Shown one piece after another: positions 19,703-51,515 of a DNA stretch of 64,000 bases. Both the position numbers and the translations under genes were made by a program. Source of the DNA: Candidatus Omnitrophota bacterium (lineage in GTDB: Bacteria > Omnitrophota > Gorgyraeia > Gygaellales > Profunditerraquicolaceae); the NCBI GenBank assembly GCA_030650425.1, contig JAUSED010000003.1:71903-135902 (forward strand). The letters run 5' to 3'. Below the pieces are notes generated by a model. The model was not told where the DNA came from, did not search any database, and saw only the letters and a list, made by a program, of their open reading frames with translations. How positions within the stretch are numbered: the stretch's first letter is position 1; each line of letters opens with the position of its first letter.

Positions 19703-20125
19703 ATGAATATGTTTAAGAAGAGGCTTACCCTAAAAATATTATTTTTTCTTATCTCTACTGATTTTCTGGAGACATTCACCCACCTCTGTTTCAAAAAAAG
19801 CGCCCTGATTGAAAACGAAGTCGTCATCACCAAAGTATCCGATGCCGTCTCTTTTCTGATGGTTGTTTTTTCATCTCCCTTTTTGTGGGTAGGGCTTTTA
19901 TCCGTGTTAGCGACATTTATTATCTGGTCGAGCTTACTCTCTAAGATTGACTTAAGTGTGGCAGTGCCCATATGCAGTTTTAGCTATATCCTCATCCCTT
20001 TAGCTTCCATTTTTTTCCTGCATGAAAAAGTAAGCCTTTTCAGGTGGTCAGGGGTATTATTCATACTCTTGGGGGTGGTCTTTGTTTCTTTAAGCGCCTC
20101 AGAGAAGGAGCGCAGCCCGGAATGA
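19703..20125 (+). CDS. Small EamA/SMR-like 4-TM membrane protein, ArnE/ArnF-like flippase subunit
   Basis: ~140 aa, four hydrophobic helices; divergent from degT. Confidence 0.5.
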   Translation: MNMFKKRLTLKILFFLISTDFLETFTHLCFKKSALIENEVVITKVSDAVSFLMVVFSSPFLWVGLLSVLATFIIWSSLLSKIDLSVAVPICSFSYILIPLASIFFLHEKVSLFRWSGVLFILLGVVFVSLSASEKERSPE

Positions 20126-20502
20126 AACAAGGCTTACCTTTCATTTTATCCCTTATCGCCTTTACCAGCGTCTGCGATACGATCAACCAACTTTTTTTGA
20201 AATCCGCGATAAATTCCCTGCATTCACCCAAAGGTAACATTAGGGCGGTACTAAATTTTATTCTCAAGTTAATTATGGTGCCGCGGGTTTGGGTTAGTTT
20301 TCTCTTTAGCATAATTTCATTGTGTATTTGGCTATTTGTATTGTCTCAGGTAGATTTAAGCTTTGCCTTCTCCGCAGACAGCATGCATTATATCTTTATC
20401 GCGCTTACCTCCAGGTTTATCTTGAAAGAAAAGGTATCTCTTAAACGATGGGTGGGAATAATTCTAATCGTGGCCGGTATAATGATGGTTAGTCTGAGTT
20501 AG
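20122..20502 (+). CDS. Small EamA/SMR-like 4-TM membrane protein, ArnE/ArnF-like flippase subunit (second of a pair)
   Basis: ATGA overlap with the upstream partner; start trimmed from 20044. Confidence 0.5.
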   Translation: MKQGLPFILSLIAFTSVCDTINQLFLKSAINSLHSPKGNIRAVLNFILKLIMVPRVWVSFLFSIISLCIWLFVLSQVDLSFAFSADSMHYIFIALTSRFILKEKVSLKRWVGIILIVAGIMMVSLS

Positions 20503-21437: not shown

Positions 21438-21465
21438 TTGACAAATGATACAATTATGGTATCAT
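21438..21465 (+). promoter_or_regulatory. TTGACA -35 box followed by palindromic operator ATGATAC-N7-GTATCAT
   Basis: Perfect 7-bp inverted repeat at 21445-21465 immediately downstream of TTGACA, upstream of the rrf2-hcp operon. Confidence 0.45.
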
Positions 21466-21610: not shown

Positions 21611-22009
21611 ATGAAATTAATCACTAGAAATACGGATTACGCGCTAAGGGCATTATGTTTTATCGCCAAAAGCGATGGTAAGATTATTCCTGTTTCAGGA
21701 CTGGCTCGTGAATTACGGGTCCCGCAGCCGTTCTTAAGGAAAATACTACAGGTATTAAGCAAGAAGCGGATACTGAAGTCTCTTAAGGGTCAGGGCGGCG
21801 GATTTTTGTTAAAGAGGAGCCCGGTAAAGATCTTCTTGCCGGATATAATGCGCATATTTCAAGGTAAATTGAGGTTGAATGAATGTTCTTTAAAGAAGCT
21901 TCTTTGCCCGGAACAGAAGACTTGCCCTTTGAGGAAAAAAATCTCCGGTATTGAACGTTATGTATTAAGAGAACTTAACGCTATCAGCATAGCGTCTTTG
22001 ATAGGTTAA
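21611..22009 (+). CDS. Rrf2-family transcriptional regulator (IscR/NsrR-like, with C-x6-C-x5-C Fe-S ligand cluster)
   Basis: N-terminal wHTH 'TDYALRALCFIA'; 'ECSLKKLLCPEQKTCP'. Confidence 0.85.
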   Translation: MKLITRNTDYALRALCFIAKSDGKIIPVSGLARELRVPQPFLRKILQVLSKKRILKSLKGQGGGFLLKRSPVKIFLPDIMRIFQGKLRLNECSLKKLLCPEQKTCPLRKKISGIERYVLRELNAISIASLIG

Positions 22010-23573: not shown

Positions 23574-24869
23574 ATGAGTATGTTTTGTTATCAGTGCGAA
23601 CAGACAGCAGGAGGAAGCGGTTGCGCAAAATTAGGCGTATGCGGGAAAAACGAAGATATCCAAAGCCTGCAGGATATTCTCTTGTTTGGTTTAAAGGGTA
23701 TTGCTGCTTACGCCTATCATGCCCGGGAGTTAGGCGCCAAATCTGAAGAGGTCGATGCGTTTATGCATGAGGCTTTATTTAAGACCGTAACTAATGTAAG
23801 TTTCGATTTAAATCAGCATCTGGATTTGGTTTTAAAATGCGGGGCAATGAACCTGGTGACCATGGAGATGCTGGATAAGGCGCATACCCAGAGGTTTGGG
23901 GATCCGGTTCCCACGCAAGTTGAAACAGGGACCAAGGTAGGCCCGGGGATTTTAGTTACCGGGCATGATTTGTTGGATTTGTATGAGTTATTAAAACAGA
24001 GCGAGGGAACAGGGGTCAATATTTATACCCATAGCGAGATGCTCCCCGCGCACGGCTATCCGGAATTAAGAAAATTCAAGCATTTGGCCGGTAACTATGG
24101 CGGGGCTTGGCAGGAGCAGAAAAAAGAATTCAATGCTTTTAGCGGCGCGATCTTAGCTACGACTAATTGCGTGTTGATTCCGCCGGAAAATTCTTATCTT
24201 AACCGGCTCTTTACGGTAGGGATTACCGGAATTACCGGGGCAACGCATTTAGCCGGTAGAAACTTTAAGGCCCTGATTGAGAAAGCGAAATCCCTTCCTT
24301 CTTTAGCCCAAGCGCCGGGAAAAAAGATTATCACTGGTTTTCACCATACGGCGATTTTGGGCTTAGCGGATAAAATTGTCAATTTGGTAAAATCCGGGAA
24401 AATCCGGCATTTTTTCTTAATCGGCGGATGCGACGGAGCAAAACCCGGCAGGAATTATTACACGGAATTTGCCGAAAAGGTGCCTAAGGATTGCGTAATT
24501 CTCACCCTTGCCTGCGGTAAATACCGTTTTAACAAGCTCGATTTTGGGGAAATCGAAGGAATCCCGCGGCTTATCGATGTCGGCCAGTGCAATAACGCTT
24601 ATTCGGCAATACAGGTAGCTATTGCTTTAAGTAAGGCCTTTAATTGCGGGGTAAATGAGCTTCCTTTGACTTTAGTGCTCTCTTGGTTTGAGCAAAAAGC
24701 AGTTGCTATCCTGCTTACTTTGTTGTATCTTAATATCAAAGGTATTTACATCGGCCCGACTCCACCGGCGTTTATCTCCAAGAATGTTTTTGGAGTTTTA
24801 CAGGAAAAATTTGATTTGAGATTGATTAGTTCTCCTGACGAAGATCTGAAAAAGATATTCAACAAATAA
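23574..24869 (+). CDS. hcp: Hybrid cluster protein / hydroxylamine reductase (short class)
   Basis: Hallmark N-terminus 'MFCYQCEQTAGGSGCAKLGVCGK'; 431 aa. Confidence 0.85.
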   Translation: MSMFCYQCEQTAGGSGCAKLGVCGKNEDIQSLQDILLFGLKGIAAYAYHARELGAKSEEVDAFMHEALFKTVTNVSFDLNQHLDLVLKCGAMNLVTMEMLDKAHTQRFGDPVPTQVETGTKVGPGILVTGHDLLDLYELLKQSEGTGVNIYTHSEMLPAHGYPELRKFKHLAGNYGGAWQEQKKEFNAFSGAILATTNCVLIPPENSYLNRLFTVGITGITGATHLAGRNFKALIEKAKSLPSLAQAPGKKIITGFHHTAILGLADKIVNLVKSGKIRHFFLIGGCDGAKPGRNYYTEFAEKVPKDCVILTLACGKYRFNKLDFGEIEGIPRLIDVGQCNNAYSAIQVAIALSKAFNCGVNELPLTLVLSWFEQKAVAILLTLLYLNIKGIYIGPTPPAFISKNVFGVLQEKFDLRLISSPDEDLKKIFNK

Positions 24870-24924: not shown

Positions 24925-24987
24925 ATGAGCTGCGGAAGATGCGGATCAATGGCCAAGAAGAAAAAGAAAAAAGCTAAGAAGAAGTAG
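24925..24987 (+). CDS. Micro-ORF (20 aa) MSCGRCGSMAKKKKKKAKKK; possible leader/regulatory peptide
   Basis: Perfect SD 'aaggaggtg' 5 nt upstream; CxxC then a poly-Lys tract encoded by an A-rich run; followed by a hairpin. Confidence 0.25.
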   Translation: MSCGRCGSMAKKKKKKAKKK

Positions 24988-25014
24988 CTTAGAAACAGGG
25001 AGAAACAAGGAAAC

Positions 25015-25045
25015 AAGGACCGTTTCCTTTCAGGAAACGGTCCTT
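25015..25045 (+). terminator. Hairpin 'aaggaccgtttcc-tttcag-ggaaacggtcctt' (weak T-tract)
   Basis: 13-bp perfect stem; member of the local GGACCGTTTCC terminator family. Confidence 0.4.
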
Positions 25046-25103
25046 AAATTCTCAAAGAGAAAATAGCCGCTGTCCCCTAAGAGAGAAGAGAGGGAGGTTC
25101 AAG

Positions 25104-25262
25104 ATGGACAAATATAGATGCACAGTATGCGGTTATATTTATGACCCTGCGCAGGGTGATGCGAGCGCAGCTATTCCCGCAGGTACGCCTTTTGATAAAT
25201 TACCCGCGGATTGGGTCTGTCCGGAGTGTGGAGTAGGTAAAGATATGTTTGAAAAGGTTTGA
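25104..25262 (+). CDS. rub: Rubredoxin
   Basis: [15 protein letters not shown]...[16 protein letters not shown]; SD AGGGAGG; missed by the ORF track (<60 aa). Confidence 0.85.
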
Positions 25263-25275
25263 AGAGAGGTAAATT

Positions 25276-26127
25276 ATGCTGTCAAAAATAACCTTTAAAG
25301 CTAACCCGCTTACTTTAGTGGGCAGACAGATAGATACCGGAAGCATCGCTCCTGATTTCAGGGTCGTTGACAAAGATCTCAATGAAGCAGGATTAGTTGA
25401 TTTCAAGGGTAAAATTAAGTTAATCAGTTCTTTTCCGTCGATAGATACGCCTGTCTGCGACTTACAGGTCAAGGAATTCAATAAAAAAGCTGCCAGTTTA
25501 TCCGCTGACATAGTGGTCATAGGGATAAGCAAAGACCTCCCCTTTGCCCAAAGCCGGTTTTGTTCTCTCAACGAAATTAAAAACGAGGTTATCTTTTCAG
25601 ATTACAAATATTCATCCTTTGGGATTAATTACGGATTGTTGATCAAAGAACTAAACCTGTTGGCCCGTTCAGTGTTAATTATAGATAAAAACGATATACT
25701 AAGGTATTTTAAGATTGTCCCGGAATTAACCCAAGCTGTGGATTATCAGGAGGCGTTGGGTAATCTAGAGGCAGTTCTCAAAAGCCCTAACTTGATCGAT
25801 AAGCAAGGTAAAGTCATCCGCTGTATTCCTTGTGAAGGCGTAGTTCCGGCCCTAGCTAGGGCAGAGATTGAGAAAGCGCTCTCCGGGCTCCCGGGATGGG
25901 AGGTAATCGAAGATAAAAAAATAACTAAAGAATTTAAGTTTAAAGATTTTATCGAGGCCAAATACTTTCTAGACTTGGTTGCGCTGATCGCCGAAGAGCA
26001 GGGACATCATCCCACACTGACTTTAATTTATAACAAACTGAAGATTACGCTTACCACACACGCCGCAGGCGGCCTTACCGCGAACGACTTTATTATGGCT
26101 GGGATAATTGATAGATTAAGCGCTTAA
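25276..26127 (+). CDS. Thiol peroxidase (Tpx) fused to a pterin-4a-carbinolamine dehydratase (PCD/DCoH) domain
   Basis: Tpx 'SIDTPVCDLQVKEFNKK'; C-terminal 'EEQGHHPTLTLIYNKLKITLTTHAAGGLT' matches the PCD signature. Confidence 0.75.
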   Translation: MLSKITFKANPLTLVGRQIDTGSIAPDFRVVDKDLNEAGLVDFKGKIKLISSFPSIDTPVCDLQVKEFNKKAASLSADIVVIGISKDLPFAQSRFCSLNEIKNEVIFSDYKYSSFGINYGLLIKELNLLARSVLIIDKNDILRYFKIVPELTQAVDYQEALGNLEAVLKSPNLIDKQGKVIRCIPCEGVVPALARAEIEKALSGLPGWEVIEDKKITKEFKFKDFIEAKYFLDLVALIAEEQGHHPTLTLIYNKLKITLTTHAAGGLTANDFIMAGIIDRLSA

Positions 26128-26832
26128 ATGACTAAAGATTTAATGGTGAGAGTTAAGGAAGTCATCCCAAGGACTTATAATGTTAAAAGTATCCGTTTTG
26201 ATCTTGGGGTAGAGTTTGATTTCAAAGCCGGGCAATTTCTTTCTCTAACACTTCAAAATAATCCGGCGTTAAAAAGATACCTTTCCATATCCAGCTCGCC
26301 CACGGAAAAATGCTACTTAGAGGTAACCAAGAAAATTACCGGCAGCGATTTTTCCAAAACGCTTGGTCAGCTTAAAACCGGGGATACCGTCACTATTCAG
26401 TATCCTTTCGGTAAATTTATTTTAGAAGAGCAAGAGAAAAGAATAGCATTTTTGTCCGGAGGCATAGGGATTACGCCGATAAGAAGCATAGCCAAATATG
26501 CCGTAGATAAAAATTTAGGTGTGGATATGGCCTTAATTTATGCCAACCGTTCGCTAAAAGATATCGTCTTTAAAGAAGATTTTGACGCGATGCAAAAAAT
26601 CTACCCTAAATTAAAGGTTAGTCATGTGCTTTGCGAAGCGGATCCGGGGTTTAAATGTATACCCGGTTTAATCAATGCCCAGGTGATTAAAAACGAAGTG
26701 AGCGATTATGCGCGAAGAAAGTTTTATCTCTGCGGCCCGCCAGCAATGGTAGAGGCGATGGGTAAGATATTGACTGAAGAATTAGGGTTAGATAAAAAAA
26801 ATATTATTACCGAGAATTTTCAAGGTTATTAG
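26128..26832 (+). CDS. FAD/NAD(P)-binding oxidoreductase (ferredoxin-NADP reductase-like)
   Basis: 'KRYLSISS' RxYS FAD motif; 'AFLSGGIGITP' NAD(P) motif. Confidence 0.7.
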   Translation: MTKDLMVRVKEVIPRTYNVKSIRFDLGVEFDFKAGQFLSLTLQNNPALKRYLSISSSPTEKCYLEVTKKITGSDFSKTLGQLKTGDTVTIQYPFGKFILEEQEKRIAFLSGGIGITPIRSIAKYAVDKNLGVDMALIYANRSLKDIVFKEDFDAMQKIYPKLKVSHVLCEADPGFKCIPGLINAQVIKNEVSDYARRKFYLCGPPAMVEAMGKILTEELGLDKKNIITENFQGY

Positions 26833-26861: not shown

Positions 26862-28055
26862 ATGTCAGTGATTAAAATATTACCGGATATATATTCCGTG
26901 GGGGTAGTGGATTGGAACGTGCGTAATTTTCACGGCCATACCTATACCACCAAACGAGGCACGACTTATAATGCTTATTTGATTATTGACGAGAAAATCA
27001 CCCTCGTGGATACAGTATACGGGCCATATTCTGCGGAACTGATTGAAAATATCCAGCAGATTATACCCGTAAATAAAATAGATTATATTATCGCCAACCA
27101 CGTAGAGACGGATCACTCCGGCGCGCTTCCTGCAATGATGAAACTTTGCCCGCAGGCCAAGATTTTCGGCACAGAAAAATGCAAGGACGGCCTGTACCAT
27201 TATTACTACGAAGATTGGGATTTTCAGGTGGTAAAATCCGGGGATAAGCTAAAATTAGGAAAAAGAAACCTGGAATTTATTGAGGCTCCGATGATTCACT
27301 GGCCTGATAGTATGTTTACTTATTGCCCGGAAGAAGCATTGCTTATGCCCAATGACGCCTTTGGCCAGCATCTGGCTACGCAGGAGAGATTCGCGGACGA
27401 GGTTGACCCTTGCGTGGTGTGGGATGAGGCAGCGAAGTATTACGGGAACATACTCTGGCCGTTAGGCATGGTTATTTTGAAAAAAATCGAAGAAATTAAA
27501 AAAAGAAACCTCCCGATAAAAATAATCGCTCCCAGCCACGGAGTTATCTGGCGTAAAGATCCGCTGCAAATAGTCGATAAATACGTTAGTTGGGCAAAGA
27601 ATGAAACCCTGCCTAAGGTAGTGATCGTCTATGAGTCGATGTGGGGCGCAACCGAAAAGATGGCTCGGAAAATCGTCGAAGGGATTGAAAAAGAAGGGGT
27701 AAGTGTCAAATTGTTCGATATAACCGGTTCTGACCGCACTGAGGTAATCAAAGAAATGCTGGAGGCAAGAGGTTTTCTTTTCGGTTCCTCGACGCACGAT
27801 AATGGGATGCTTACGACAATAGCCGGATTCCTTGATTTTATCCGCGGGCTTAAGCCAAAAAACAGGTTAGCTGCAGTTTTCGGCTCTTATGGTTGGGCCG
27901 CAGGGGCAGTCAAGCAAATAGAGGATATCGCTAAAGAAACCGGTATGGAGTTGGCGCTAGCAGGATTGCAGGTTAAATATATGCCTAATAAGGGGGATTT
28001 AGAGGGTTGCTTAGAATTCGGCAGGAAATTTGCCGCCGTAATAAAGGGGAGGTAA
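26862..28055 (+). CDS. Flavodiiron protein (rubredoxin:oxygen/NO oxidoreductase, FprA/ROO)
   Basis: Metallo-beta-lactamase 'HVETDHSGALP' plus C-terminal flavodoxin 'VVIVYESMWGATEKMA'. Confidence 0.85.
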   Translation: MSVIKILPDIYSVGVVDWNVRNFHGHTYTTKRGTTYNAYLIIDEKITLVDTVYGPYSAELIENIQQIIPVNKIDYIIANHVETDHSGALPAMMKLCPQAKIFGTEKCKDGLYHYYYEDWDFQVVKSGDKLKLGKRNLEFIEAPMIHWPDSMFTYCPEEALLMPNDAFGQHLATQERFADEVDPCVVWDEAAKYYGNILWPLGMVILKKIEEIKKRNLPIKIIAPSHGVIWRKDPLQIVDKYVSWAKNETLPKVVIVYESMWGATEKMARKIVEGIEKEGVSVKLFDITGSDRTEVIKEMLEARGFLFGSSTHDNGMLTTIAGFLDFIRGLKPKNRLAAVFGSYGWAAGAVKQIEDIAKETGMELALAGLQVKYMPNKGDLEGCLEFGRKFAAVIKGR

Positions 28056-28058
28056 ATA

Positions 28059-28235
28059 ATGGGTCCGATAGAAGCTTTGGAGTTGGCGCTGGGAAAAGAA
28101 ATCGAAGCCAGGGATATGTACGAGAAATTCAGTTACCAGTATCCCGCAACAAAAGAGATTTTTACTTTTCTAATGAACGAAGAAGCGAAACATAAACAGC
28201 TGATTGAGAAAAGGATAGTAGAGCTGCAAGATTAG
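28059..28235 (+). CDS. 58-aa two-helix 'half-ferritin' protein (rubrerythrin/ferritin-like ExxH half-site)
   Basis: SD GGGGAGG; 'FLMNEEAKHKQLIEK'; resembles the N-terminal half of the 28711 gene product; not in the ORF track. Confidence 0.4.
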   Translation: MGPIEALELALGKEIEARDMYEKFSYQYPATKEIFTFLMNEEAKHKQLIEKRIVELQD

Positions 28236-28700
28236 ATGAAACAACTTAACGATACTATTGTTCAATTCTTTCAAAAGCAGGGATGTGTTATAATTTCAAG
28301 TATCGATAGCAACGGCTTTCCCCATAGTTCTTGTAAGGGTATAGTCAGGATTGATAAAAAAGGAAGTATTTATTTGCTTGATGCCTACAGGGGCAAAACT
28401 TTTCAAAACCTGCAAAACAATCCTAATGTAAGCGTTACGTCTTTTGACGAAGATAAATTTGTCGGCTACTGCCTTAAAGGAAGGGCGCGCCTTTTATCCA
28501 AAGAGGAAGTTGACGCCGGGATGATCAGGGCTTGGGAGGATAGAATCACCAGCAGGCTGACCCAAAGGTTGCTGAAAAATATCCGCGGTGATGCAAAAGG
28601 ACATCCTGCTCATCCGGAAGCTTTATTACCTAAACCGGAGCATATGATTGTTGTTAGTGTTAAAGAGGTAGTTGATCTTACACCGCACCATTTAAAATAA
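28236..28700 (+). CDS. Pyridoxamine 5'-phosphate oxidase-like FMN-binding split-barrel protein
   Basis: ~150 aa; 'PHSSCKG...YLLDAYRGKTFQNL' pattern typical of PNPOx-like proteins. Confidence 0.55.
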   Translation: MKQLNDTIVQFFQKQGCVIISSIDSNGFPHSSCKGIVRIDKKGSIYLLDAYRGKTFQNLQNNPNVSVTSFDEDKFVGYCLKGRARLLSKEEVDAGMIRAWEDRITSRLTQRLLKNIRGDAKGHPAHPEALLPKPEHMIVVSVKEVVDLTPHHLK

Positions 28701-28710
28701 AGAGGTAGGT

Positions 28711-29187
28711 ATGGGGAACATTTTTAGTGGGAGCGAAATAGTAGCAATCGGGATTCAGATTGAAAAAAACGGCCGCGATTTCTATAATGCGCTTGTCAGG
28801 CAATCGAATAACCAAAAGGCGAGAGAGGTCTTTAAATTCCTGGCAGGCGAAGAGGAGAAACATATAAAGGTATTCCAAGGTATATTGGATAAAACTGAAA
28901 AATTTGAACCTCAAGGTTTAGACGCTGATGATTATTTTGCCTATATGAGCGCTTTGGCAGGCGAGCATGTTTTTACCCAAAAAGAGAAGGGTGAGAAAAT
29001 AGCTAAGGATATTAAGAGTGATAAAGAAGCGATAGATAAAGCCATACGTTTTGAAGAGGATTCTATTGTTTTTTACGCGGGGATGAAAAAAATTGTCCCA
29101 GCGTATGACGTGAAGATAATCGAGGCCTTGATTATACAGGAAGAAGGCCATTTAAAACAGCTTATAGAGATGAAGAAGTTGATTTAG
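28711..29187 (+). CDS. Rubrerythrin-like ferritin-fold diiron protein (no rubredoxin domain)
   Basis: Two ExxH sites 'EEEKH' and 'EEGH' in a four-helix arrangement. Confidence 0.6.
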   Translation: MGNIFSGSEIVAIGIQIEKNGRDFYNALVRQSNNQKAREVFKFLAGEEEKHIKVFQGILDKTEKFEPQGLDADDYFAYMSALAGEHVFTQKEKGEKIAKDIKSDKEAIDKAIRFEEDSIVFYAGMKKIVPAYDVKIIEALIIQEEGHLKQLIEMKKLI

Positions 29188-29197
29188 AAAGGATAAT

Positions 29198-29434
29198 ATG
29201 GCTAAAAACGTAAATGTATACAGCACTCCGACTTGTCCATGGTGTGTAAGGGTTAAGCAGTTTTTAAAAGATAATAATGTTGTTTTCCAAGATTATGATG
29301 TCTCTATTGATCGAGCAAAGGGTGATGAAATGGCGCAAAAGTCCGGCCAGATGAGCGTGCCGGTAATTGATATCGAAGGCGAGATTATCGTCGGATTTGA
29401 TAAAGAGAGGATTAAAGCGGCATTGGGATTATGA
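29198..29434 (+). CDS. Glutaredoxin-like protein (CPWC active site)
   Basis: 'YSTPTCPWCVRVKQFL'; 78 aa thioredoxin fold. Confidence 0.7.
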   Translation: MAKNVNVYSTPTCPWCVRVKQFLKDNNVVFQDYDVSIDRAKGDEMAQKSGQMSVPVIDIEGEIIVGFDKERIKAALGL

Positions 29435-30339
29435 AAATTTACGATCTTATTATTGTGGGCGCGGGGCCGGCGGGGATTACCGCCAGCGTCTACGCCGCGC
29501 GCAAGAAAATGGATTTCTTGGTGATCACCGGAGATATCGGAGGCCAGACTGCTTGGAGCGGCGATATTGAAAATTATACCGGTTATCAATTTGTCACCGG
29601 GCCCGAATTAGTGCGTAAATTCGAAGAACATATGCGCAGCTACGATACCAGCGTCCGGGAAGGCGAGGGAGTAATCGCGGTGGAAAAGAGCGGAGAATTC
29701 ATTTTGGTCGAGACTAATAAGGGAGCCCAATATCAAGCTAAAACCGCGATCATTGCTTCGGGCAAACGCTCAAGAGAACTAGGCGTTCCGGGCGAAAAAG
29801 AATATAAAAATAAAGGGATTAGTTATTGCGCGACTTGCGACGGCCCGCTTTTTAACGGTAAAGCCGTGGCGATTATCGGCGGAGGGAATTCCGCTCTGGA
29901 CGCGTGCCTGCAATTAATCAGGATCGCCAAGTATGTATATATGGTCAATAACCTTCCTAAGCTGGGTGGCGATTCGATTATGCGCCAGAAAGTGGAAGAG
30001 GCAAAAAATGTTGAAATTCTGAATAATGCTAAAGTGGCTGCTATTTTGGGCGATAAAATGGTGAACGCTATTCAGGTAAATCACGAGGGAAAAGAAAGAA
30101 CACTTCAGGTAGAGGGAGTTTTTGTTGAGATTGGGTTAATTCCTAATTCGGATTTTGTTAAGGATGTGGAAAAAAACGCCTCAGGCGAAATTAAAATAAA
30201 TAACCATAACGAAACCAATATCCCCGGTATATTTGCCGCCGGAGACGTTACGGATGTCCCGGAGAAGCAGATCATCATTGCTGCTGGTGAGGGGTCAAAG
30301 GCCTGCCTTCGCGCTTTTCGTTATTTAGCTCAGCATTAA
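29431..30339 (+). CDS. trxB: Thioredoxin-disulfide reductase family flavoprotein
   Basis: 'IVGAGPAGITASVYAAR'; redox 'CATCDG'; 'GGGNSA'. Confidence 0.8.
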   Translation: MKIYDLIIVGAGPAGITASVYAARKKMDFLVITGDIGGQTAWSGDIENYTGYQFVTGPELVRKFEEHMRSYDTSVREGEGVIAVEKSGEFILVETNKGAQYQAKTAIIASGKRSRELGVPGEKEYKNKGISYCATCDGPLFNGKAVAIIGGGNSALDACLQLIRIAKYVYMVNNLPKLGGDSIMRQKVEEAKNVEILNNAKVAAILGDKMVNAIQVNHEGKERTLQVEGVFVEIGLIPNSDFVKDVEKNASGEIKINNHNETNIPGIFAAGDVTDVPEKQIIIAAGEGSKACLRAFRYLAQH

Positions 30340-33540: not shown

Positions 33541-33588
33541 AAAAGCCTTGTTATCTGAAGCAATAAGTGTTATAATTGTATCAGATAT

Positions 33589-33617
33589 TGAAGCGATTAA
33601 TAGGCTTAATCGCTTCA
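33589..33617 (+). promoter_or_regulatory. Perfect 12-bp inverted repeat TGAAGCGATTAA-N5-TTAATCGCTTCA (operator or terminator) preceded by a TATAAT box
   Basis: Read directly; lies between a candidate -10 (33571-33576) and the fic SD. Confidence 0.45.
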
Positions 33618-33632
33618 GGAGGGAATAGCTGG

Positions 33633-34754
33633 ATGAAATACATTTGGGAAGGTAAAAATTGGTTTGATTTTAAATATGACAATGCGGCTTTGCTCGAGCC
33701 TTTAAGCAAGTTACGAGTGTTACAGGGGAAATTATTGGGCCGCGCCGCGTCTCTTGACCTTAAGCTTGAAGCCGAGGCTCAGGGCGCTATTTTGGTGGAA
33801 GAGGCGGTCAGGACTGCTGAAATTGAGGGCCAGAAGCTCAAACGTGACGCAGTCCGTTCTTCGGTAGCGGCCAGACTTGGTTTGCCGGATGGAGTGGGCA
33901 TACGCGACAGGAACGTTGATGGCTTGGTAGATGTTTTGTTGGATGCTGTCCGTTTTCATGATAAGTCTTTGACTCTGGAGCGGCTCAATGGCTGGCAGGC
34001 CGCCTTATTTCCCACCGGCTATTCAGGCTTAAGGAAAATTACTATTGGAAAACTTAGGGGAAACGAACCTATGCGAATAGTATCCGGGCCATTAGGTAAA
34101 GAAAAGGTGCATTTTGAAGCGCTGCCAAAGGATCGCCTTGATCAAGAGATGCGGCTTTTTTTGCAATGGTGGAATTCATCATTAGGCAGCATGGATGGTA
34201 TCTTACGCGCGGCAGCTGTTCATTTACGCTTTTTGACTATTCATCCATACGAAGATGGCAATGGCCGCCTGGGAAGGGCTTTAACGGATATGGCTCTGGC
34301 GCAGGATGAGAAATTAAAAGTCAGGTTTTACAGCGTCTCTTCAGAGATTATGCGTATGAAGGGAGGGTATTATAAAATCCTTGAGGATACGCAAAGATGC
34401 CGCGTTGATCCAACGGAATGGTTCCTATGGTTTATTAAATGTGTTACGGCATCCATTGAGCATTCCAGAGAGATGATTGCCAATGTATTTACGCGCGTTG
34501 ATTTCTGGAATCAACACGCGCAAACAGAGCTTAATGAGCGTCAGAAAAAAGTTATAAATCGTATTTTGGAAGCTGGTCCCGGTAATTTTGTTGGCGGCTT
34601 GACAACGCGTAAATATGTGAGTATGGCTAAGACAAGCCGGGCTACGGCATTTCGTGAAATTACAGATCTGCTTGATAAGAAAATCCTGCGGCAATTGTCC
34701 GGTAAAGGCCGAAGTGTGCATTATGATTTAGTCTGGCCGAAGATGGCTCAGTAA
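33633..34754 (+). CDS. Fic/DOC family protein (AMPylator-type, DUF4172 N-terminus)
   Basis: 'HPYEDGNGRLGRAL' Fic motif; typical 'MKYIWEGKNWFDF' start; start trimmed from 33576. Confidence 0.8.
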   Translation: MKYIWEGKNWFDFKYDNAALLEPLSKLRVLQGKLLGRAASLDLKLEAEAQGAILVEEAVRTAEIEGQKLKRDAVRSSVAARLGLPDGVGIRDRNVDGLVDVLLDAVRFHDKSLTLERLNGWQAALFPTGYSGLRKITIGKLRGNEPMRIVSGPLGKEKVHFEALPKDRLDQEMRLFLQWWNSSLGSMDGILRAAAVHLRFLTIHPYEDGNGRLGRALTDMALAQDEKLKVRFYSVSSEIMRMKGGYYKILEDTQRCRVDPTEWFLWFIKCVTASIEHSREMIANVFTRVDFWNQHAQTELNERQKKVINRILEAGPGNFVGGLTTRKYVSMAKTSRATAFREITDLLDKKILRQLSGKGRSVHYDLVWPKMAQ

Positions 34755-34830
34755 TTAGCCCAAAAAAAGTCCCCATTTTTTTCCTTGTAGATATACAGCT
34801 TGGATGTATAATAAAATCGAGGTGATAAGA

Positions 34831-35019
34831 ATGGTTCAGACATTAATAAAAGACAGTGGTTATGAAGGAAAATATGTAGCTTTAAAGAGTTTTGAGGACT
34901 CTACTGTTATTAGCTACGGAAGCACTCCCGCGGAAGCTTACGAAAAAGCTGTGGGAAAAGGATTTGCTAAGCCCGTATTGGTATTTGTACCCCTAAAAGA
35001 TATGGTACAAATTTATTAA
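34831..35019 (+). CDS. Small protein (62 aa) partnered with retropepsin-like protease (DUF5678-like; tentative)
   Basis: SD 'gaggtga'; promoter TTGTAG-16-TATAAT at 34785-34812; ATGG overlap with the downstream gene. Confidence 0.4.
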   Translation: MVQTLIKDSGYEGKYVALKSFEDSTVISYGSTPAEAYEKAVGKGFAKPVLVFVPLKDMVQIY

Positions 35020-35426
35020 TGGAAATAGCAAGCATACCTTTTAGAAAGTTTGGGCCAAACGACATCCCGAGGCCATGGCTGCCCATTACTATTATAAATC
35101 CCCACGCGGATAAAGAAATCGAAGTATATGGCTTGATTGATACTGGCGCCGATGAATGCGCTTTACCGGCTCAATACGCGCCTCTTATTGGCCATAATTT
35201 GCAGGCAGGTTATCCCAAAGAAATTAATACAGGAAATGGAAAGACATTGGCTTATTCTCATACAATATGTTTAGAAATCCAGGATTTTACAATCAAAGAT
35301 GTTTTGATAGATTTCATGCCTAATCTTTCTGTGCCGCTCTTGGGCACAAAGAGCTTTCTTAGTAATTTTATGCTTACCATAGATTATCCAAATTCTACTT
35401 TTTCAATTATTAAAAGTAAATCGTAG
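35019..35426 (+). CDS. Retropepsin-like (clan AA) aspartic protease domain protein
   Basis: 'LIDTGADECALP' D-T-G-A catalytic motif; 135 aa. Confidence 0.65.
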   Translation: MEIASIPFRKFGPNDIPRPWLPITIINPHADKEIEVYGLIDTGADECALPAQYAPLIGHNLQAGYPKEINTGNGKTLAYSHTICLEIQDFTIKDVLIDFMPNLSVPLLGTKSFLSNFMLTIDYPNSTFSIIKSKS

Positions 35427-36239: not shown

Positions 36240-38051
36240 GTGCAAATGATTGATCCTCTGGCATTATTTTTTCTTGCCGTAATTTTTATTGTTTCCCTGC
36301 CGTCAGCTATTTACTCCCTTGGTTACCTAAAGAACGAATATTCATCTGCCAAAATAACGCTTGCCTGGGTTTTGTTGGTTGCCTTTGTTTTATCCATGGC
36401 CTTGGTAGTCAGCGTAAGCAACGTTTTGGTTTTTCTTGTGTTTTGGGAGATTATGTCTTTGCTCTCCTATTTTCTGGTCGTCTTTGATACAAAACATGAG
36501 AAATCTATCCAAGCGGGAATGATTTACATTGTGATGACGCATATCGGCACCGCTTTTTTGATCGCCGCGTTTCTCTTAATGTATAAATACGCGCATTCCT
36601 TTGATTTCCTCGCCATAAAGAGCGCCTGCCTGAGTATGCCTGCTCAAACTAGAAATATTGTGTTTTTATTACTCTTGGTTGGTTTCGGTACTAAAGCCGG
36701 AATCGTGCCTTTGCATGTCTGGCTGCCCTATGCCCATCCGCAAGCTCCCAGCCATATTTCAAGTATTATGTCGGGAGTAATGATCAAAACTGCCATTTAT
36801 GGAATTATCCGGTTCGTAATATTTATACTGGGCGCAGGCTCTTCTTGGTGGGGGATATTAATTATAATCCTTGCCTTAATCTCTTGCCTGGTGGGCATTA
36901 TTTACGCGCTGATGGAGCGCGATATTAAAAAGCTGCTTGCCTATTCTAGTGTTGAGAATATGGGAATAATTTTATTAGGAGTAGGGCTTGCCCTCTTTTT
37001 CCAGAGCGTAAATATGCCTTATCTTGCGGTGTTTTCTCTAATCGCAGGATTATATCATTTAGTCAATCACGCGATTTTTAAGGGCCTGCTCTTTTTATGC
37101 GCCGGCAGCGTATATAAAGCTAGCGGGACACGGGATATCGAAAAATTAGGGGGGTTAATTAAGCAAATGCCATTGACAGCGGGATTTTTTCTCTTTGGCG
37201 CGATGGCTATTTCCGGCCTCCCGCCCTTAAACGGCTTTGTGAGTGAATGGCTGACTTTACAGGCCTTCTTTTTAGGGGCTTTTAATACAATAGGAGGAGT
37301 CAAACTTTTTTTAGGGATTTGCGCCGGCCTCTTGGCTTTAACCGGCGGTTTGGCCGCGGCTTGTTTTGTGAAAGCTTTTGGCTTAACTTTCCTCGCGCTT
37401 CCCAGAAGCCATTACGCTAAAGAGGCGCGGGAGGTTGCTTTATCGATGAAGCTGGGGATGTTTTGCTTAGCGCTTCTCGTGCTTATCTTCGGTTTAGCCG
37501 CAGCGATAATTATGAAATTACTGGCCAGAGTTGCAGGCGCGGCATGCGGCATTGATATAGGTAATATGGCATTCTTTTTAAATAATTTCACCCTTAGCCC
37601 GCAGGTGGGCAGGGGTATTTATCTTTCTGTGCCTTTACTGGCGATCTGGCTGATTGTTTTGGGAGTTCTTGGTTTTGCTATCTATAAGCTATTTTGGAAA
37701 GGTAAGTCAGTAATTTATAAAACTTGGGATTGCGGTTATTATAATATGGACTCGCGTAACGAATACACCGCGACTGCTTTTTCCAAGCCCTTTAGGATTG
37801 CCTTTAGTTTCTTTTTGCTCCCTTACCGCAAAACCCAGAAGATTAGAGACTCATTTTATCACGTTAAATCTTTTGCTTATGAAACGCATACGACCCTGAT
37901 TTTTAAAAAATATATCTATGATCCGGCAATTGCCTTAGTTTTAACTACAGCTAAGGCGATGAGGAGGATTCAACCGGGTAGTATCCACCTGTATTTAGGT
38001 TATATTTTTATCACCTTATTATTGTTAATTATCTTTATACACCAATTCTAA
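36240..38051 (+). CDS. EhrA-like antiporter-type membrane subunit (NuoL/MrpA/HyfB family)
   Basis: 603 aa, ~16 TM, conserved 'WLPDAH'-type motif 'WLPYAHPQAPSHIS'. Confidence 0.7.
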   Translation: MQMIDPLALFFLAVIFIVSLPSAIYSLGYLKNEYSSAKITLAWVLLVAFVLSMALVVSVSNVLVFLVFWEIMSLLSYFLVVFDTKHEKSIQAGMIYIVMTHIGTAFLIAAFLLMYKYAHSFDFLAIKSACLSMPAQTRNIVFLLLLVGFGTKAGIVPLHVWLPYAHPQAPSHISSIMSGVMIKTAIYGIIRFVIFILGAGSSWWGILIIILALISCLVGIIYALMERDIKKLLAYSSVENMGIILLGVGLALFFQSVNMPYLAVFSLIAGLYHLVNHAIFKGLLFLCAGSVYKASGTRDIEKLGGLIKQMPLTAGFFLFGAMAISGLPPLNGFVSEWLTLQAFFLGAFNTIGGVKLFLGICAGLLALTGGLAAACFVKAFGLTFLALPRSHYAKEAREVALSMKLGMFCLALLVLIFGLAAAIIMKLLARVAGAACGIDIGNMAFFLNNFTLSPQVGRGIYLSVPLLAIWLIVLGVLGFAIYKLFWKGKSVIYKTWDCGYYNMDSRNEYTATAFSKPFRIAFSFFLLPYRKTQKIRDSFYHVKSFAYETHTTLIFKKYIYDPAIALVLTTAKAMRRIQPGSIHLYLGYIFITLLLLIIFIHQF

Positions 38052-38971
38052 TGATGAAAATTATAATTATCCTGCAATTAGCTTTTTTTATCGCAGCCGC
38101 TCCTTTACTCAACGGCCTGATTACCAAAATAAAGAATAATCTTAGGCTGCGCAAGGGGCAAAGTATTTTCCAGCCGTATTATAATTTAGCTAAACTTTTT
38201 GCCAAGGGAGAGGTGGTTTCGGAAACCGCCTCTTGGATCTTCAAAGTTGCTCCTTGGGTAGTATTTTCTGCCACGCTTAGCGCGGCGTTACTCATTCCTG
38301 TATTTATATTCGCCAGTCCGGCACATCGCCTAGGCGATTTTTTGGCCTTAATTTTTATTTTTGCTTTAGCGCGCTTCTTTTTGGCGCTTGCGGCATTGGA
38401 TACCGGAAGTTCTTTTGGCGGGATGGGTTCATCAAGGGAGATGTTTATTTCCGGCTTGGCTGAGCCGGCGCTTTGTTTAGTCATCTTTAGCCTGTCTTTG
38501 CAATTCGGTTCAACGGATATTTCGGCGTTTAGCGGGATGCATAGGGTATCGGTTTCTTCCGTGGTGGCCGCGTTGGCATTATTCCTGGTGACCCTCGCGG
38601 AGACCTCGCGTATCCCGGTTGATAATCAGGAGACGCATCTGGAACTAACCATGGCGCATGAGGCAATGGTTTTGGAATATTCCGGCCCTTCTTTAGCCTT
38701 ACTCGAGTGGTCTGCCCACATTAAACAGATGATTTTCTTTTTCTTGATCGCTCAGATTGTTTTTCCGATTAGCCTGCCGTTTCTCGGGAGCTTAGTTCAA
38801 ACCTCTGTTTGGGTTATATGCTATTTAGCCAGAATAATGGTTATCGCTGTGATCGTAGCACTGGTCGAGGTTTCCGTAGCCAAAATGAGGTTGTTCAGGG
38901 TAGCGGATTTTCTGGGGTTTGCCTTTGTTTTAGGGGTGATTGCCAGCGTATGCGCTATACTAGGAGTTTAA
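38051..38971 (+). CDS. EhrB-like membrane subunit (NuoH/HycD family)
   Basis: 'RLRKGQSIFQPYYNLAKLF' NuoH-family N-terminal block; 8 TM. Confidence 0.7.
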   Translation: MMKIIIILQLAFFIAAAPLLNGLITKIKNNLRLRKGQSIFQPYYNLAKLFAKGEVVSETASWIFKVAPWVVFSATLSAALLIPVFIFASPAHRLGDFLALIFIFALARFFLALAALDTGSSFGGMGSSREMFISGLAEPALCLVIFSLSLQFGSTDISAFSGMHRVSVSSVVAALALFLVTLAETSRIPVDNQETHLELTMAHEAMVLEYSGPSLALLEWSAHIKQMIFFFLIAQIVFPISLPFLGSLVQTSVWVICYLARIMVIAVIVALVEVSVAKMRLFRVADFLGFAFVLGVIASVCAILGV

Positions 38972-38972
38972 T

Positions 38973-39608: not shown

Positions 39609-39612
39609 CCTG

Positions 39613-49607: not shown

Positions 49608-49611
49608 AGGC

Positions 49612-49668
49612 GAAACAGTTTCCGATCCAAAGCGGAAACTGTTTCCGAGCCAATCGGGAAACAGTTTC
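49612..49668. promoter_or_regulatory. Three tandem palindromes GGAAAC-N-GTTTCC at ~21-22-bp spacing (candidate operator)
   Basis: 'cgaaacagtttccg', 'cggaaactgtttccg', 'gggaaacagtttct' read directly between the hydG-like stop and the ferredoxin start. Confidence 0.4.
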
Positions 49669-49675
49669 TAAGCTT

Positions 49676-51084: not shown

Positions 51085-51085
51085 T

Positions 51086-51511: not shown

Positions 51512-51515
51512 GCTT

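What the first reader, a model, noticed from the sequence alone, without database searches (positions are those of the whole stretch)
25276..26127. Thiol peroxidase fused to a pterin-4a-carbinolamine dehydratase (DCoH) domain
The N-terminal 165 aa form a Tpx-type peroxiredoxin (SIDTPVCD). The C-terminal 100 aa carry an excellent PCD signature (EEQGHHP...YNKLKITLTTHAAGGLT). This fusion is not one I recognise. It suggests that peroxide detoxification is linked to pterin recycling, or that DCoH acts as a dimerisation or regulatory module.
Basis: partly seen in the sequence, partly recalled or inferred. Interest (0 to 1): 0.55.

Follow-up and report, generated by a model that had tools for sequence, protein, structure and literature searches.

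The report
Thiol peroxidase fused to pterin dehydratase
A real gene, conserved across the uncultured phylum Omnitrophota, joins a peroxide-destroying enzyme to an apparently active pterin-recycling enzyme inside an oxygen-defence gene cluster; nobody seems to have described it, and what the pterin half does there is unknown.

Summary
Window 25276..26127 (+) is one uninterrupted 283-aa ORF: a Tpx-type peroxiredoxin (residues 1-165), a variable ~17-residue linker, and a complete PCD/DCoH domain (183-283). It is not a frameshift. At least 120 independent 90%-identity clusters and 80 species-level genomes, nearly all Omnitrophota MAGs, carry the same ~283-aa architecture.

Of 154 two-domain proteins collected, 136 keep every key residue: peroxidatic C61, resolving C96, R131, a CxxC at 183/186, and the PCD motif H244-H245-P246, Y252, H262, D271. 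The PCD half is as conserved as the Tpx half (75% vs 71% mean pairwise identity; linker 39%).

The gene sits in an oxidative-stress cluster: Rrf2, hybrid-cluster protein, rubredoxin, FUSION, FNR-like reductase, flavodiiron protein, rubrerythrin-like genes, glutaredoxin-like protein, thioredoxin-reductase-like protein. Related loci show similar clusters. No pterin, folate, Moco or aromatic-hydroxylase gene recurs nearby.

Best reading (inferred, ~0.4): a bifunctional O2-defence enzyme whose PCD half dehydrates 4a-hydroxy adducts of reduced pterins or folates formed under oxidant stress. Main rival: the PCD half is a non-catalytic oligomerisation or docking module.

Databases call it plain "thiol peroxidase"; I found no paper on it. 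It is a new variant of known kinds, of moderate interest.

The parts
25276..26127 (+). Tpx-PCD fusion ORF, 283 aa plus stop
   Evidence: identical to NCBI protein P0001
25276..25770 (+). Tpx (atypical 2-Cys peroxiredoxin) domain, residues 1-165. Peroxidatic Cys61 codon at 25456-25458; resolving Cys96 codon at 25561-25563.
   Evidence: Pfam and NCBIfam; alignment to 2jsy/3p7x; the AF2 model superposes on 3p7x with target-normalised TM-score 0.97, rmsd 1.0 A; C61, C96 and R131 invariant
25771..25821 (+). Variable inter-domain linker, residues 166-182
   Evidence: Mean pairwise identity 39% against 71-76% in the domains; pLDDT below 50 at residues 176-179, block means 53 and 65
25822..25833 (+). 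Invariant CxxC (C183-I-P-C186) at the N-terminal edge of the PCD domain
   Evidence: Invariant in 99 aligned members; the region is already covered by NCBIfam PCD models from residue 181; also present in non-fused PCDs P0150 and P0270
25849..26118 (+). PCD/DCoH domain core, residues 192-281. H244-H245-P246 codons at 26005-26013; also Y252, H262, D271.
   Evidence: Pterin_4a E 2.5e-29; alignment to 1ru0/3jst/3hxa; residues invariant
25104..25262 (+). Rubredoxin, 13 nt upstream of the fusion
   Evidence: Pfam Rubredoxin 86.5 bits; at position -1 in 14 related loci
26128..26832 (+). FNR-like FAD/NAD(P)H reductase without an Fe-S domain (Fre/Hcr-like). Its ATG directly abuts the fusion's TAA.
   Evidence: within three genes of the fusion in 28 related loci
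26862..28055 (+). Flavodiiron protein (class A O2/NO reductase)
   Evidence: Pfam ODP + Flavodoxin_1; NF008887 496 bits, below its 635 cut-off
29198..29434 (+). Glutaredoxin-like protein with CPWC motif; candidate direct reductant of the Tpx disulfide
   Evidence: Pfam Glutaredoxin 67.7 bits; present in 29 of 61 loci of at least 8 kb
29431..30339 (+). Thioredoxin-reductase / AhpF-C-terminal-like flavoprotein; candidate NAD(P)H entry point for the Tpx
   Evidence: Pyr_redox_2; TIGR01292 295 bits, below its 343 cut-off, and AhpF C-terminal half 330 bits; present in 25 of 61 loci
21611..22009 (+). Rrf2-family regulator at the head of the same-strand cluster
   Evidence: best promoter-like site at 21438-21465; present in 24 of 61 loci
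23574..24869 (+). Hybrid-cluster protein, short 431-aa form
28059..29187 (+). 58-aa mini-rubrerythrin, PNPOx-like protein and rubrerythrin-like protein; the rest of the defence cluster
   Evidence: recurrent in related loci

Best explanation
This is a genuine bifunctional oxygen-defence enzyme. Shown: one ORF encodes a complete atypical 2-Cys thiol peroxidase and a complete PCD domain with an intact catalytic motif, joined by a flexible linker. The gene is conserved across Omnitrophota and is embedded in O2/NO-stress clusters. Inferred step 1: the Tpx half reduces H2O2 and organic hydroperoxides through C61 and C96 and is re-reduced by the glutaredoxin-like and thioredoxin-reductase-like pair encoded in the same cluster. 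Inferred step 2, the speculative core: the PCD half is catalytic and dehydrates 4a-hydroxy adducts of reduced pterins or folates that form when these O2-labile cofactors meet oxygen or peroxide. Such adducts could arise spontaneously, or as the alcohol left when the Tpx half reduces a 4a-hydroperoxide. The product would be a quinonoid dihydropterin that a flavin reductase can return to the tetrahydro form; the translationally coupled FNR-like neighbour is one candidate. On this reading the fusion couples peroxide removal to cofactor salvage.
For: Fusion is real and widespread. Tpx catalytic residues T58, C61, C96 and R131 are invariant. The PCD motif E240-x3-H244-H245-P246-x5-Y252-x9-H262-x8-D271 is intact in 136 of 154 members and aligns with the HHP/Y/H/D residues of solved PCDs. 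The PCD domain is at least as conserved as the Tpx domain (0.745-0.763 vs 0.713 mean pairwise identity) while the linker drifts (0.387), which is the pattern expected for two selected activities on a tether. The context is consistently oxidative-stress defence: rubredoxin, FDP, SOR, DJ-1/PfpI, HCP, rubrerythrins, ferritin, Grx-like/TrxR-like; 44 of 61 loci of at least 8 kb. The FNR-like gene abuts the fusion's stop codon and resembles NAD(P)H-flavin reductases. The chemistry fits: a peroxidase turns R-OOH into R-OH, and a 4a-OH pterin is the PCD substrate (established PCD reaction, described in PMC9737128). One member (P0159) lost the peroxidatic Cys but kept the full PCD motif, which suggests the PCD half has value of its own.
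Against: No pterin, folate, Moco or aromatic amino acid hydroxylase gene recurs next to the fusion or was found among the window ORFs scanned. A pterin or folate 4a-hydroperoxide as a Tpx substrate is my own hypothesis with no tool or literature support found. It is unknown whether these organisms make unconjugated tetrahydropterins. Several divergent singletons (P0137, P0139, P0140, P0141) keep the peroxidatic Cys but have lost the PCD histidines. The closest non-fused PCD relatives are not next to a peroxiredoxin. The FNR-like neighbour is explained equally well as the reductase for rubredoxin/FDP or HCP. Conservation of PCD catalytic residues does not exclude a binding role, because mammalian DCoH keeps them too (established knowledge).
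Confidence: 0.4

Rival explanations
1. The PCD domain is a non-catalytic structural module, as DCoH is. It would oligomerise the peroxidase (PCDs form dimers or tetramers, Tpx forms dimers) or dock it onto a partner such as a reductase or regulator. Pterins would play no part.
For: No pterin-related genes in any neighbourhood. AF2 gives pTM 0.84 for the two-domain chain, which suggests a defined domain arrangement rather than beads on a string. Divergent members keep the fold but lose the catalytic histidines (P0137, P0139, P0140, P0141). PCD-fold proteins with non-enzymatic roles are known (DCoH, plant and carboxysomal RAF2-type proteins; own knowledge, and the PDB molecule names).
Against: All catalytic-motif residues are invariant in 136 of 154 members, and the PCD domain is the most conserved part of the protein. 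A pure scaffold would not need H244, H245, H262 and D271. The degenerate cases are singletons of uncertain quality.
Confidence: 0.3
2. Redox-relay model. The invariant CxxC sits in the flexible segment between the domains. It would act as a built-in second thiol centre that resolves or reduces the peroxidatic Cys and passes the disulfide outward. That would make this a peroxiredoxin fused to part of its own reductant, in the manner of Prx-Grx hybrids.
For: C183 and C186 are invariant in 99 members and lie in the low-confidence, presumably mobile segment 171-190. Among divergent representatives that keep C61, seven lost C96 but kept C183, five lost the CxxC but kept C96, and none lost both. Triple fusions add a rhodanese (another Cys-based domain) at the N-terminus.
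Against: The complementarity is not significant: about 1.6 double losses would be expected by chance against 0 seen. A search for a clade lacking the resolving Cys found only isolated sequences. The CxxC also occurs in non-fused PCDs (P0150, P0270) and lies inside the region modelled by NCBIfam PCD families, so it was inherited rather than evolved for the fusion. This model leaves the conserved PCD catalytic motif unexplained.
Confidence: 0.12
3. Two unrelated activities that merely share a transcript and polypeptide. The PCD half would do the textbook job of recycling the pterin cofactor of an aromatic amino acid hydroxylase encoded elsewhere in the genome.
For: The canonical PCD motif is intact. 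Some Omnitrophota are predicted to respire O2 (PMC10066038), so an O2-dependent hydroxylase is not impossible.
Against: No hydroxylase was found among the window ORFs scanned or within three genes of the fusion in the 79 loci surveyed. The window organism looks anaerobic: hydrogenase-like complexes, SOR/FDP/rubrerythrin-type defences, 2-oxoacid:ferredoxin oxidoreductases in related loci. A random fusion would not be held at high conservation across a phylum.
Confidence: 0.1
4. Sequencing or assembly artefact: a frameshift or chimera joining separate tpx and PCD genes.
For: None found.
Against: The same continuous ~283-aa ORF occurs in at least 120 protein clusters and 80 genomes from independent projects and assemblers, with a linker that varies in sequence but keeps the frame.
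Confidence: 0.01

Closest known systems
Bacterial thiol peroxidase Tpx (atypical 2-Cys peroxiredoxin; e.g. B. subtilis 2JSY, S. aureus 3P7X, E. coli 1QXH)
   Same: The N-terminal 165 residues are 40-46% identical to solved Tpx proteins. The PSIDTxVC and LPFAQxRxC motifs carry the peroxidatic and resolving cysteines, and the fold matches (target-normalised TM-score 0.97, rmsd 1.0 A). It passes the NCBIfam equivalog cut-off.
   Different: All characterised and solved Tpx proteins are single-domain, about 165 aa. Here a 118-residue linker plus PCD domain is appended. The likely reductant is a Grx-like/TrxR-like pair rather than classical thioredoxin (inference).
Pterin-4a-carbinolamine dehydratase / DCoH (PF01329, COG2154; e.g. 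1DCH, 1RU0, 3JST; P. aeruginosa PhhB)
   Same: Full-length match to Pterin_4a. The catalytic HHP...Y...H...D residues align with solved PCDs. The CxxC just ahead of the core is shared with some bacterial PCDs (PhhB from memory).
   Different: It is fused to a peroxiredoxin. It sits in oxidative-stress clusters, not beside a phenylalanine hydroxylase or Moco genes. No hydroxylase partner was identified.
Peroxiredoxin hybrid enzymes (Prx-glutaredoxin hybrids such as H. influenzae PGdx; Prx-nitroreductase of Thermotoga); from my own knowledge
   Same: There is precedent for a peroxiredoxin carrying a second, functionally coupled domain on the same chain.
   Different: In those cases the partner is a recognised electron donor with a thioredoxin or flavin fold. 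A PCD fold has no known redox role.
Rubredoxin / flavodiiron protein / rubrerythrin / superoxide-reductase oxygen-defence operons of anaerobes (Desulfovibrio, Clostridium), and the C. pasteurianum TrxR-like (Cp34) / Grx-like (Cp9) / peroxiredoxin (Cp20) system next to rubredoxin; from my own knowledge
   Same: The gene content of the window cluster and of about 70% of related loci matches this type of defence island, including a Grx-like plus TrxR-like pair suited to reducing a peroxiredoxin.
   Different: Those systems use stand-alone peroxiredoxins. None is reported with a PCD domain.
Non-catalytic PCD-like proteins (plant RAF2/PDL1, carboxysomal acRAF); own knowledge; PDL1 is listed among NTRC interactors in PMC6812714
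   Same: They show that the PCD fold can be reused as a binding or assembly module, which is the basis of the main rival explanation.
   Different: As I recall, those proteins have lost the catalytic motif. The fusion's PCD domain keeps it completely.

Membership tests
Tpx subfamily of peroxiredoxins | Thioredoxin-fold Redoxin/AhpC-TSA domain scoring above the family-specific model cut-off | tested here: met
   Pfam Redoxin 76.3 bits (cut-off 26.6) and AhpC-TSA 63.1 bits (cut-off 26); NCBIfam NF001808 thiol peroxidase equivalog 180.6 bits against cut-off 123
Tpx subfamily of peroxiredoxins | Peroxidatic Cys in the T-x-x-C motif plus the conserved active-site Arg | tested here: met
   T58-P-V-C61 aligns with the DTGVC motif of 2jsy and 3p7x; T58, C61 and R131 invariant in 99 members
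Tpx subfamily of peroxiredoxins | Resolving Cys about 34 residues downstream, forming an intramolecular disulfide (atypical 2-Cys) | tested here: met
   C96 in LPFAQSRFC aligns with LPFAQARWC of 2jsy and is invariant in the core family. PDB titles name C61 as peroxidatic and C95 as resolving in E. coli Tpx. Disulfide formation itself was not tested.
Tpx subfamily of peroxiredoxins | Tpx three-dimensional fold | tested here: met
   The AF2 model (pLDDT about 90 or above in the domain) superposes on 3p7x at target-normalised TM-score 0.97, rmsd 1.0 A
Tpx subfamily of peroxiredoxins | Thiol-dependent peroxidase activity | not testable with these tools
   Needs an enzyme assay
PCD/DCoH (PF01329, EC 4.2.1.96) | Full-length Pterin_4a domain above cut-off | tested here: met
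   101.7 bits (cut-off 26), profile positions 2-91 of 91. NCBIfam NF002017 gives 87.6 bits against 80; four other PCD equivalog models fall below their cut-offs.
PCD/DCoH (PF01329, EC 4.2.1.96) | Catalytic motif [EDKH]-x3-H-[HN]-[PCS]-x5,6-[YWF]-x9-[HW]-x8,15-D (motif recalled from Naponelli et al. 2008, which could not be retrieved) | tested here: met
   E240-x3-H244-H245-P246-x5-Y252-x9-H262-x8-D271, read directly from the sequence. The residues align with HHP/Y/H/D of 1ru0, 3jst and 3hxa. Intact in 136 of 154 members.
PCD/DCoH (PF01329, EC 4.2.1.96) | Co-occurrence with a tetrahydropterin-dependent aromatic amino acid hydroxylase or another pterin client | tested here: inconclusive
   None found among the window ORFs scanned or within three genes of the fusion in 79 related loci. 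Whole genomes could not be scanned.
PCD/DCoH (PF01329, EC 4.2.1.96) | 4a-hydroxytetrahydropterin dehydratase activity | not testable with these tools
   Needs an enzyme assay or complementation test
Peroxiredoxin fused to its own reductant (Prx-Grx-type hybrids) | Second domain is a thioredoxin-fold or flavin redox domain with a redox-active CxxC | tested here: not met
   The second domain is a PCD fold. Its CxxC lies in an unstructured, low-pLDDT segment and is inherited from stand-alone PCDs.

The most novel reading that the evidence does not exclude
The fusion is a two-step repair enzyme for C4a-oxygenated pterin-type cofactors (tetrahydropterin, tetrahydrofolate, possibly flavin). The Tpx half would reduce the C4a-hydroperoxide formed when the reduced cofactor meets O2 to the C4a-hydroxide, and the PCD half would dehydrate that to the quinonoid form. 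The adjacent FNR-like reductase would then re-reduce it. In effect this is a cofactor-mediated four-electron reduction of O2 to water that never releases H2O2. It would give PCD proteins a function in the many anaerobes that lack aromatic amino acid hydroxylases.
Probability: 0.15. Interest if true: 0.8.

Novelty: new variant of a known kind. Interest (0 to 1): 0.5.

Why it matters
PCD-family proteins occur in many prokaryotes that have no pterin-dependent hydroxylase, and their role there is an open question (own knowledge of the COG2154 literature). A phylum-wide, strongly conserved fusion of a catalytically intact PCD to a peroxidase, inside oxygen-defence islands, is a Rosetta-stone hint that PCD chemistry belongs to oxidative-stress or cofactor-damage control in anaerobes. 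The protein is small, soluble and easy to express, so the hypothesis can be tested directly. It also corrects the annotation: public records call these proteins simply "thiol peroxidase" or "lipid hydroperoxide peroxidase" and ignore a third of the polypeptide. If the PCD half turns out to be only a scaffold, the finding is an ordinary domain-architecture variant.

Tried and rejected
**Frameshift or chimera.** Rejected.

**AFDB fold search for the two-domain architecture.** The library was unavailable. The Foldseek search of the PDB matched only the Tpx half, and the PDB sequence search found no chain spanning both domains.

**Rosetta-stone adjacency test.** The nearest non-fused PCD relative examined (P0270) sits in a cluster of multi-PCD paralogues with no peroxiredoxin, so there is no support from adjacency.

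**Cr/CxxC complementarity test.** I searched from the Cr-less member P0129. It is an isolated sequence (nearest relative 47% identical), so no clade was found and the test stays underpowered.

**Literature.** Queries for thiol peroxidase + PCD, COG2154, DCoH + peroxiredoxin, Omnitrophota + peroxiredoxin and Pterin_4a turned up no description of the fusion. The key PCD phylogenomics paper (PMC2287330) is not held. No text support was found for a pterin 4a-hydroperoxide intermediate.

**Pterin, folate, Moco or hydroxylase genes.** None found among the window ORFs scanned.

**Promoter and terminator scan.** No richer in sites than shuffled sequence.

**Hairpin after the mini-ORF.** Its sequence is not conserved in other loci, and there is no Rfam match.

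**AF2 coordinates.** They could not be accessed, so distances between C61, the CxxC and the PCD site were not measured.
Full report
**1. Observation**

Window 25276..26127 (+) is a single 283-codon ORF. It starts 13 nt after the rubredoxin stop codon, behind a GAGAGG Shine-Dalgarno-like sequence. Its TAA stop is followed directly by the ATG of the next gene. Pfam finds Redoxin (residues 22-153, E 2.8e-21), AhpC-TSA (22-144) and a full-length Pterin_4a domain (192-281, E 2.5e-29). NCBIfam's thiol-peroxidase equivalog NF001808 scores 180.6 bits against a cut-off of 123, and the PCD equivalog NF002017 scores 87.6 against 80. The description is correct in every particular.

**2. The fusion is not an artefact**

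A search of 5.8 billion proteins returned the identical sequence (NCBI, Omnitrophota MAG, 359-kb contig). It also returned at least 120 further 90%-identity clusters, all about 283 aa, all with both Pfam domains, at 65-89% identity, from NCBI, JGI, ENA and Logan assemblies.

A scan of one genome per GTDB species gave 185 confirmed relatives. The best 80 are all full-length fusions. Nearly all are titled Candidatus Omnitrophota; a few are titled Planctomycetales, Jettenia, Chlamydiota, Ratteibacteria or Margulisiibacteriota, which may reflect binning or labelling.

An exhaustive profile search of 1.84 billion 50%-identity representatives found about 25-30 representatives spanning both domains. 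Below them, scores fall to those of plain Tpx. One two-domain representative lies on a 206-kb Spirochaetales MAG contig, next to a superoxide reductase gene. The frameshift hypothesis is refuted.

**3. Anatomy and conservation**

In alignments of 22 and 99 members the invariant residues include:
- T58, C61 (peroxidatic), C96 (resolving) and R131 in the Tpx half;
- a CxxC (C183, C186) at the N-terminal edge of the PCD half;
- H244, H245, P246, H262 and D271 in the PCD half, with Y252 nearly invariant.

These align with the catalytic residues of solved Tpx and PCD structures. Of 154 two-domain proteins collected, 136 carry all twelve key residues.

Mean pairwise identity is 0.713 for the Tpx domain, 0.387 for the linker (residues 166-182) and 0.745-0.763 for the PCD domain. 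That is the pattern of two selected domains on a freely evolving tether.

AlphaFold2 with the 99-sequence alignment gives mean pLDDT 89.2 and pTM 0.84. Both domains are confident, and residues 171-190 (linker plus CxxC) are poorly defined. The Tpx half superposes on S. aureus Tpx at 1.0 A. No PDB chain covers both halves.

**4. Variants**

- Triple fusions exist. Rhodanese-Tpx-PCD: P0121 (NCBI OGT07178.1, annotated "lipid hydroperoxide peroxidase") and P0131. Rubrerythrin-like-Tpx-PCD: P0123, followed by two more rubrerythrin-like genes.
- Rare divergent singletons have one degenerate half. P0137, P0139, P0140 and P0141 keep C61 but lose the PCD histidines. P0159 (Omnitrophica, NCBI) has lost C61 but keeps the full PCD motif and the CxxC.
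- Members that lost C96 keep C183, and members that lost the CxxC keep C96; none lost both. The numbers are too small to be significant, and a search for a larger clade lacking C96 found only an isolated sequence.
- Stand-alone Tpx proteins of about 170 aa also exist in Omnitrophota.

**5. Genomic context**

In the window the fusion lies in a same-strand cluster, in this order:
- Rrf2 regulator (21611-22009)
- 4Fe-4S protein
- HD/zinc-ribbon protein
- short hybrid-cluster protein (23574-24869)
- rubredoxin (25104-25262)
- FUSION
- FNR-like FAD/NAD(P)H reductase without an Fe-S domain (26128-26832)
- class A flavodiiron protein (26862-28055)
- 58-aa mini-rubrerythrin
- PNPOx-like protein
- rubrerythrin-like protein
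- glutaredoxin-like CPWC protein (29198-29434)
- thioredoxin-reductase/AhpF-C-like flavoprotein (29431-30339)
- NifU-like protein

.

An unbiased clustering of the three genes on each side of the fusion in 79 loci found these recurrent neighbours:

| Neighbour | Loci |
|---|---|
| FNR-like reductase | 28 |
| Flavodiiron protein | 22 |
| DJ-1/PfpI (always directly downstream) | 22 |
| 2-oxoacid:ferredoxin oxidoreductase alpha / beta | 22 / 18 |
| Rubredoxin (14 directly upstream) | 19 |
| Superoxide reductase | 16 |

HCP, rubrerythrin-VIT1, PNPOx-like, ferredoxin, VIT1 and ferritin also recur at lower counts.

In the 61 loci of at least 8 kb, 44 hold at least one such defence gene. Grx-like and TrxR-like genes are present in 29 and 25 of them. 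Where the island is absent, neighbours include NAD synthase, an RnfD-like protein and MsrAB.

No pterin, folate or Moco biosynthesis gene and no aromatic amino acid hydroxylase recurs in these neighbourhoods, and none was found among the window ORFs scanned. The remainder of the window encodes two complex-I-like or group-4 [NiFe]-hydrogenase-type clusters and housekeeping genes. That is consistent with an anaerobe.

**6. Mechanism**

*Shown.* A real, conserved polypeptide with two catalytically complete domains, located in O2/NO-defence islands.

*Inferred with fair confidence.* The Tpx half is an active peroxidase fed by NAD(P)H through the TrxR-like and Grx-like proteins.

*Uncertain.* What the PCD half does. 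I commit, at about 0.4, to a catalytic role. It would dehydrate 4a-hydroxy adducts of reduced pterins or folates generated under oxidant exposure, giving a quinonoid dihydropterin that a flavin reductase can re-reduce. The chemistry is coherent, because a peroxidase converts R-OOH to R-OH and 4a-OH-pterin is exactly the PCD substrate. The strict conservation of the PCD active site across the phylum argues for catalysis.

*Against.* There is no pterin-related neighbour, some singletons have a dead PCD half, and I found no direct support for a pterin hydroperoxide as a Tpx substrate.

*Rivals.* A non-catalytic DCoH-like oligomerisation or docking module (0.3). A CxxC redox relay (0.12). An unrelated canonical PCD function serving a distant hydroxylase (0.1). 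An artefact (0.01 or less).

**7. Comparison with known systems, and novelty**

Each half passes the testable membership criteria of its family (Tpx; PCD). The combination matches no solved structure and no paper in the searchable library. That includes the 421-genome Omnitrophota study, which does not mention peroxidases, pterins or folate. Public annotation calls the protein only "thiol peroxidase".

It is a new variant of known kinds, not a new kind. Interest is moderate (0.5): it is a clean and easily testable Rosetta-stone clue to the unexplained role of PCD proteins in organisms without pterin-dependent hydroxylases, but the function is still conjecture.

**8. Side finding**

The HCP-rubredoxin gap holds an unannotated 20-codon ORF (24925-24987) encoding MSCGRCGSMAKKKKKKAKKK, behind AAGGAGGTG. 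A 15-bp perfect hairpin follows it at 25014-25046. For the 116-nt stretch downstream of the ORF (24988-25103), which contains the hairpin, the MFE is -33.6 kcal/mol, z = -2.7.

The same kind of ORF occurs in 17 distinct related loci: M-[SGA]-C-G-x-C-[GK], then a poly-lysine tail, 17-22 aa. It is always behind AGGAGG-type Shine-Dalgarno sequences and always on the fusion's strand. It always lies in intergenic gaps of these clusters, four times directly upstream of the fusion. Third-codon positions vary while the peptide is preserved, and the downstream sequence always folds stably.

It was not called as a gene in L081, and no Rfam family matches the region. It may be a leader peptide or attenuator, or a CxxC polybasic micro-protein. 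It deserves its own follow-up.

Noticed in passing
window 24925-24987 (+) and hairpin 25014-25046; also L006:2905-2964, L036:6875-6940, L048:4865-4924, L060:6845-6904, L009, L010/L081, L011, L018, L019, L020, L024, L029, L030, L033, L038, L046, L052: A conserved, unannotated 17-22 aa mini-ORF: M-S-C-G-x-C-G-P-KK-P-KKK-A-KKKK, a CxxC plus a poly-lysine tail. It has a strong AGGAGG Shine-Dalgarno and lies in intergenic gaps of the oxidative-stress or 2-oxoacid-oxidoreductase clusters, four times directly upstream of the Tpx-PCD gene. A stable hairpin region follows it. Synonymous codon variation suggests it is translated. No Rfam match. It could be a leader peptide/attenuator or a redox or metal-binding micro-protein.
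   Followed up: partly
P0121 (L086:6001-7197), P0131, P0123 (L085:6001-7320): Triple fusions: Rhodanese-Tpx-PCD (398 and 402 aa; one is in NCBI as a 'lipid hydroperoxide peroxidase' of a 'Gammaproteobacteria' MAG) and Rubrerythrin-like-Tpx-PCD (439 aa), the latter followed by two more rubrerythrin-like genes.
   Followed up: partly
P0212 (554 aa, four Pterin_4a domains); L084:4209-7758 (three adjacent genes of 253, 247 and 293 aa, each hitting Pterin_4a) in a Campylobacterota-labelled MAG: Proteins made of tandem PCD domains, clustered as paralogues beside large proteins with no Pfam hit. They are among the closest non-fused relatives of the fusion's PCD domain. Their function is unknown.
   Followed up: no
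Directly downstream of the fusion in 22 related loci (e.g. L005:1346-1858, L004, L016, L031, L033, L038, L052, L068); absent from the window: A 170-aa DJ-1/PfpI-family gene is inserted between the fusion and the FNR-like reductase. It is the most position-specific neighbour of the fusion.
   Followed up: partly
window 28059-28235 (+): A 58-aa 'mini-rubrerythrin', about half of a four-helix-bundle diiron domain, conserved after the flavodiiron gene in 13 related loci. It would need to dimerise to form a diiron site.
   Followed up: no
window 23574-24869 (+): The hybrid-cluster protein is a short 431-aa form: the N-terminal Cys motif is joined to profile positions ~135-545 of the ~550-aa model, with about 110 residues missing. 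It is conserved at 75-86% identity in related loci.
   Followed up: no
window 36240-42617 and 47717-56082 (+): Two separate complex-I-like or group-4 membrane-bound [NiFe]-hydrogenase-type gene clusters (Proton_antipo_M, NADHdh, Complex1_49kDa/30kDa, NiFeSe_Hases, Fer4). The second is preceded by an FNR/PyrK-like Fe-S flavoprotein at 48789-49607.
   Followed up: no
window 19703-20125 and 20044-20502 (+): Two overlapping ORFs in different frames each hit the EamA transporter domain. This is possibly a frameshifted or split EamA-family transporter gene.
   Followed up: no
P0159 (NCBI MBD3246075.1, Omnitrophica) and P0137/P0139/P0140/P0141: Divergent two-domain members with one half apparently inactivated. 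P0159 lacks the peroxidatic Cys (Ile) but keeps the full PCD motif. The other four keep the peroxidatic Cys but have lost the PCD histidines. All are singletons, so sequence quality is unverified.
   Followed up: partly
window 33576-35426 (+): A DUF4172-Fic/DOC protein (33576-34754) and a retropepsin-like aspartyl protease ORF (35019-35426) lie between the defence cluster and the hydrogenase-like cluster. They may be a small mobile or toxin-type insert.
   Followed up: no
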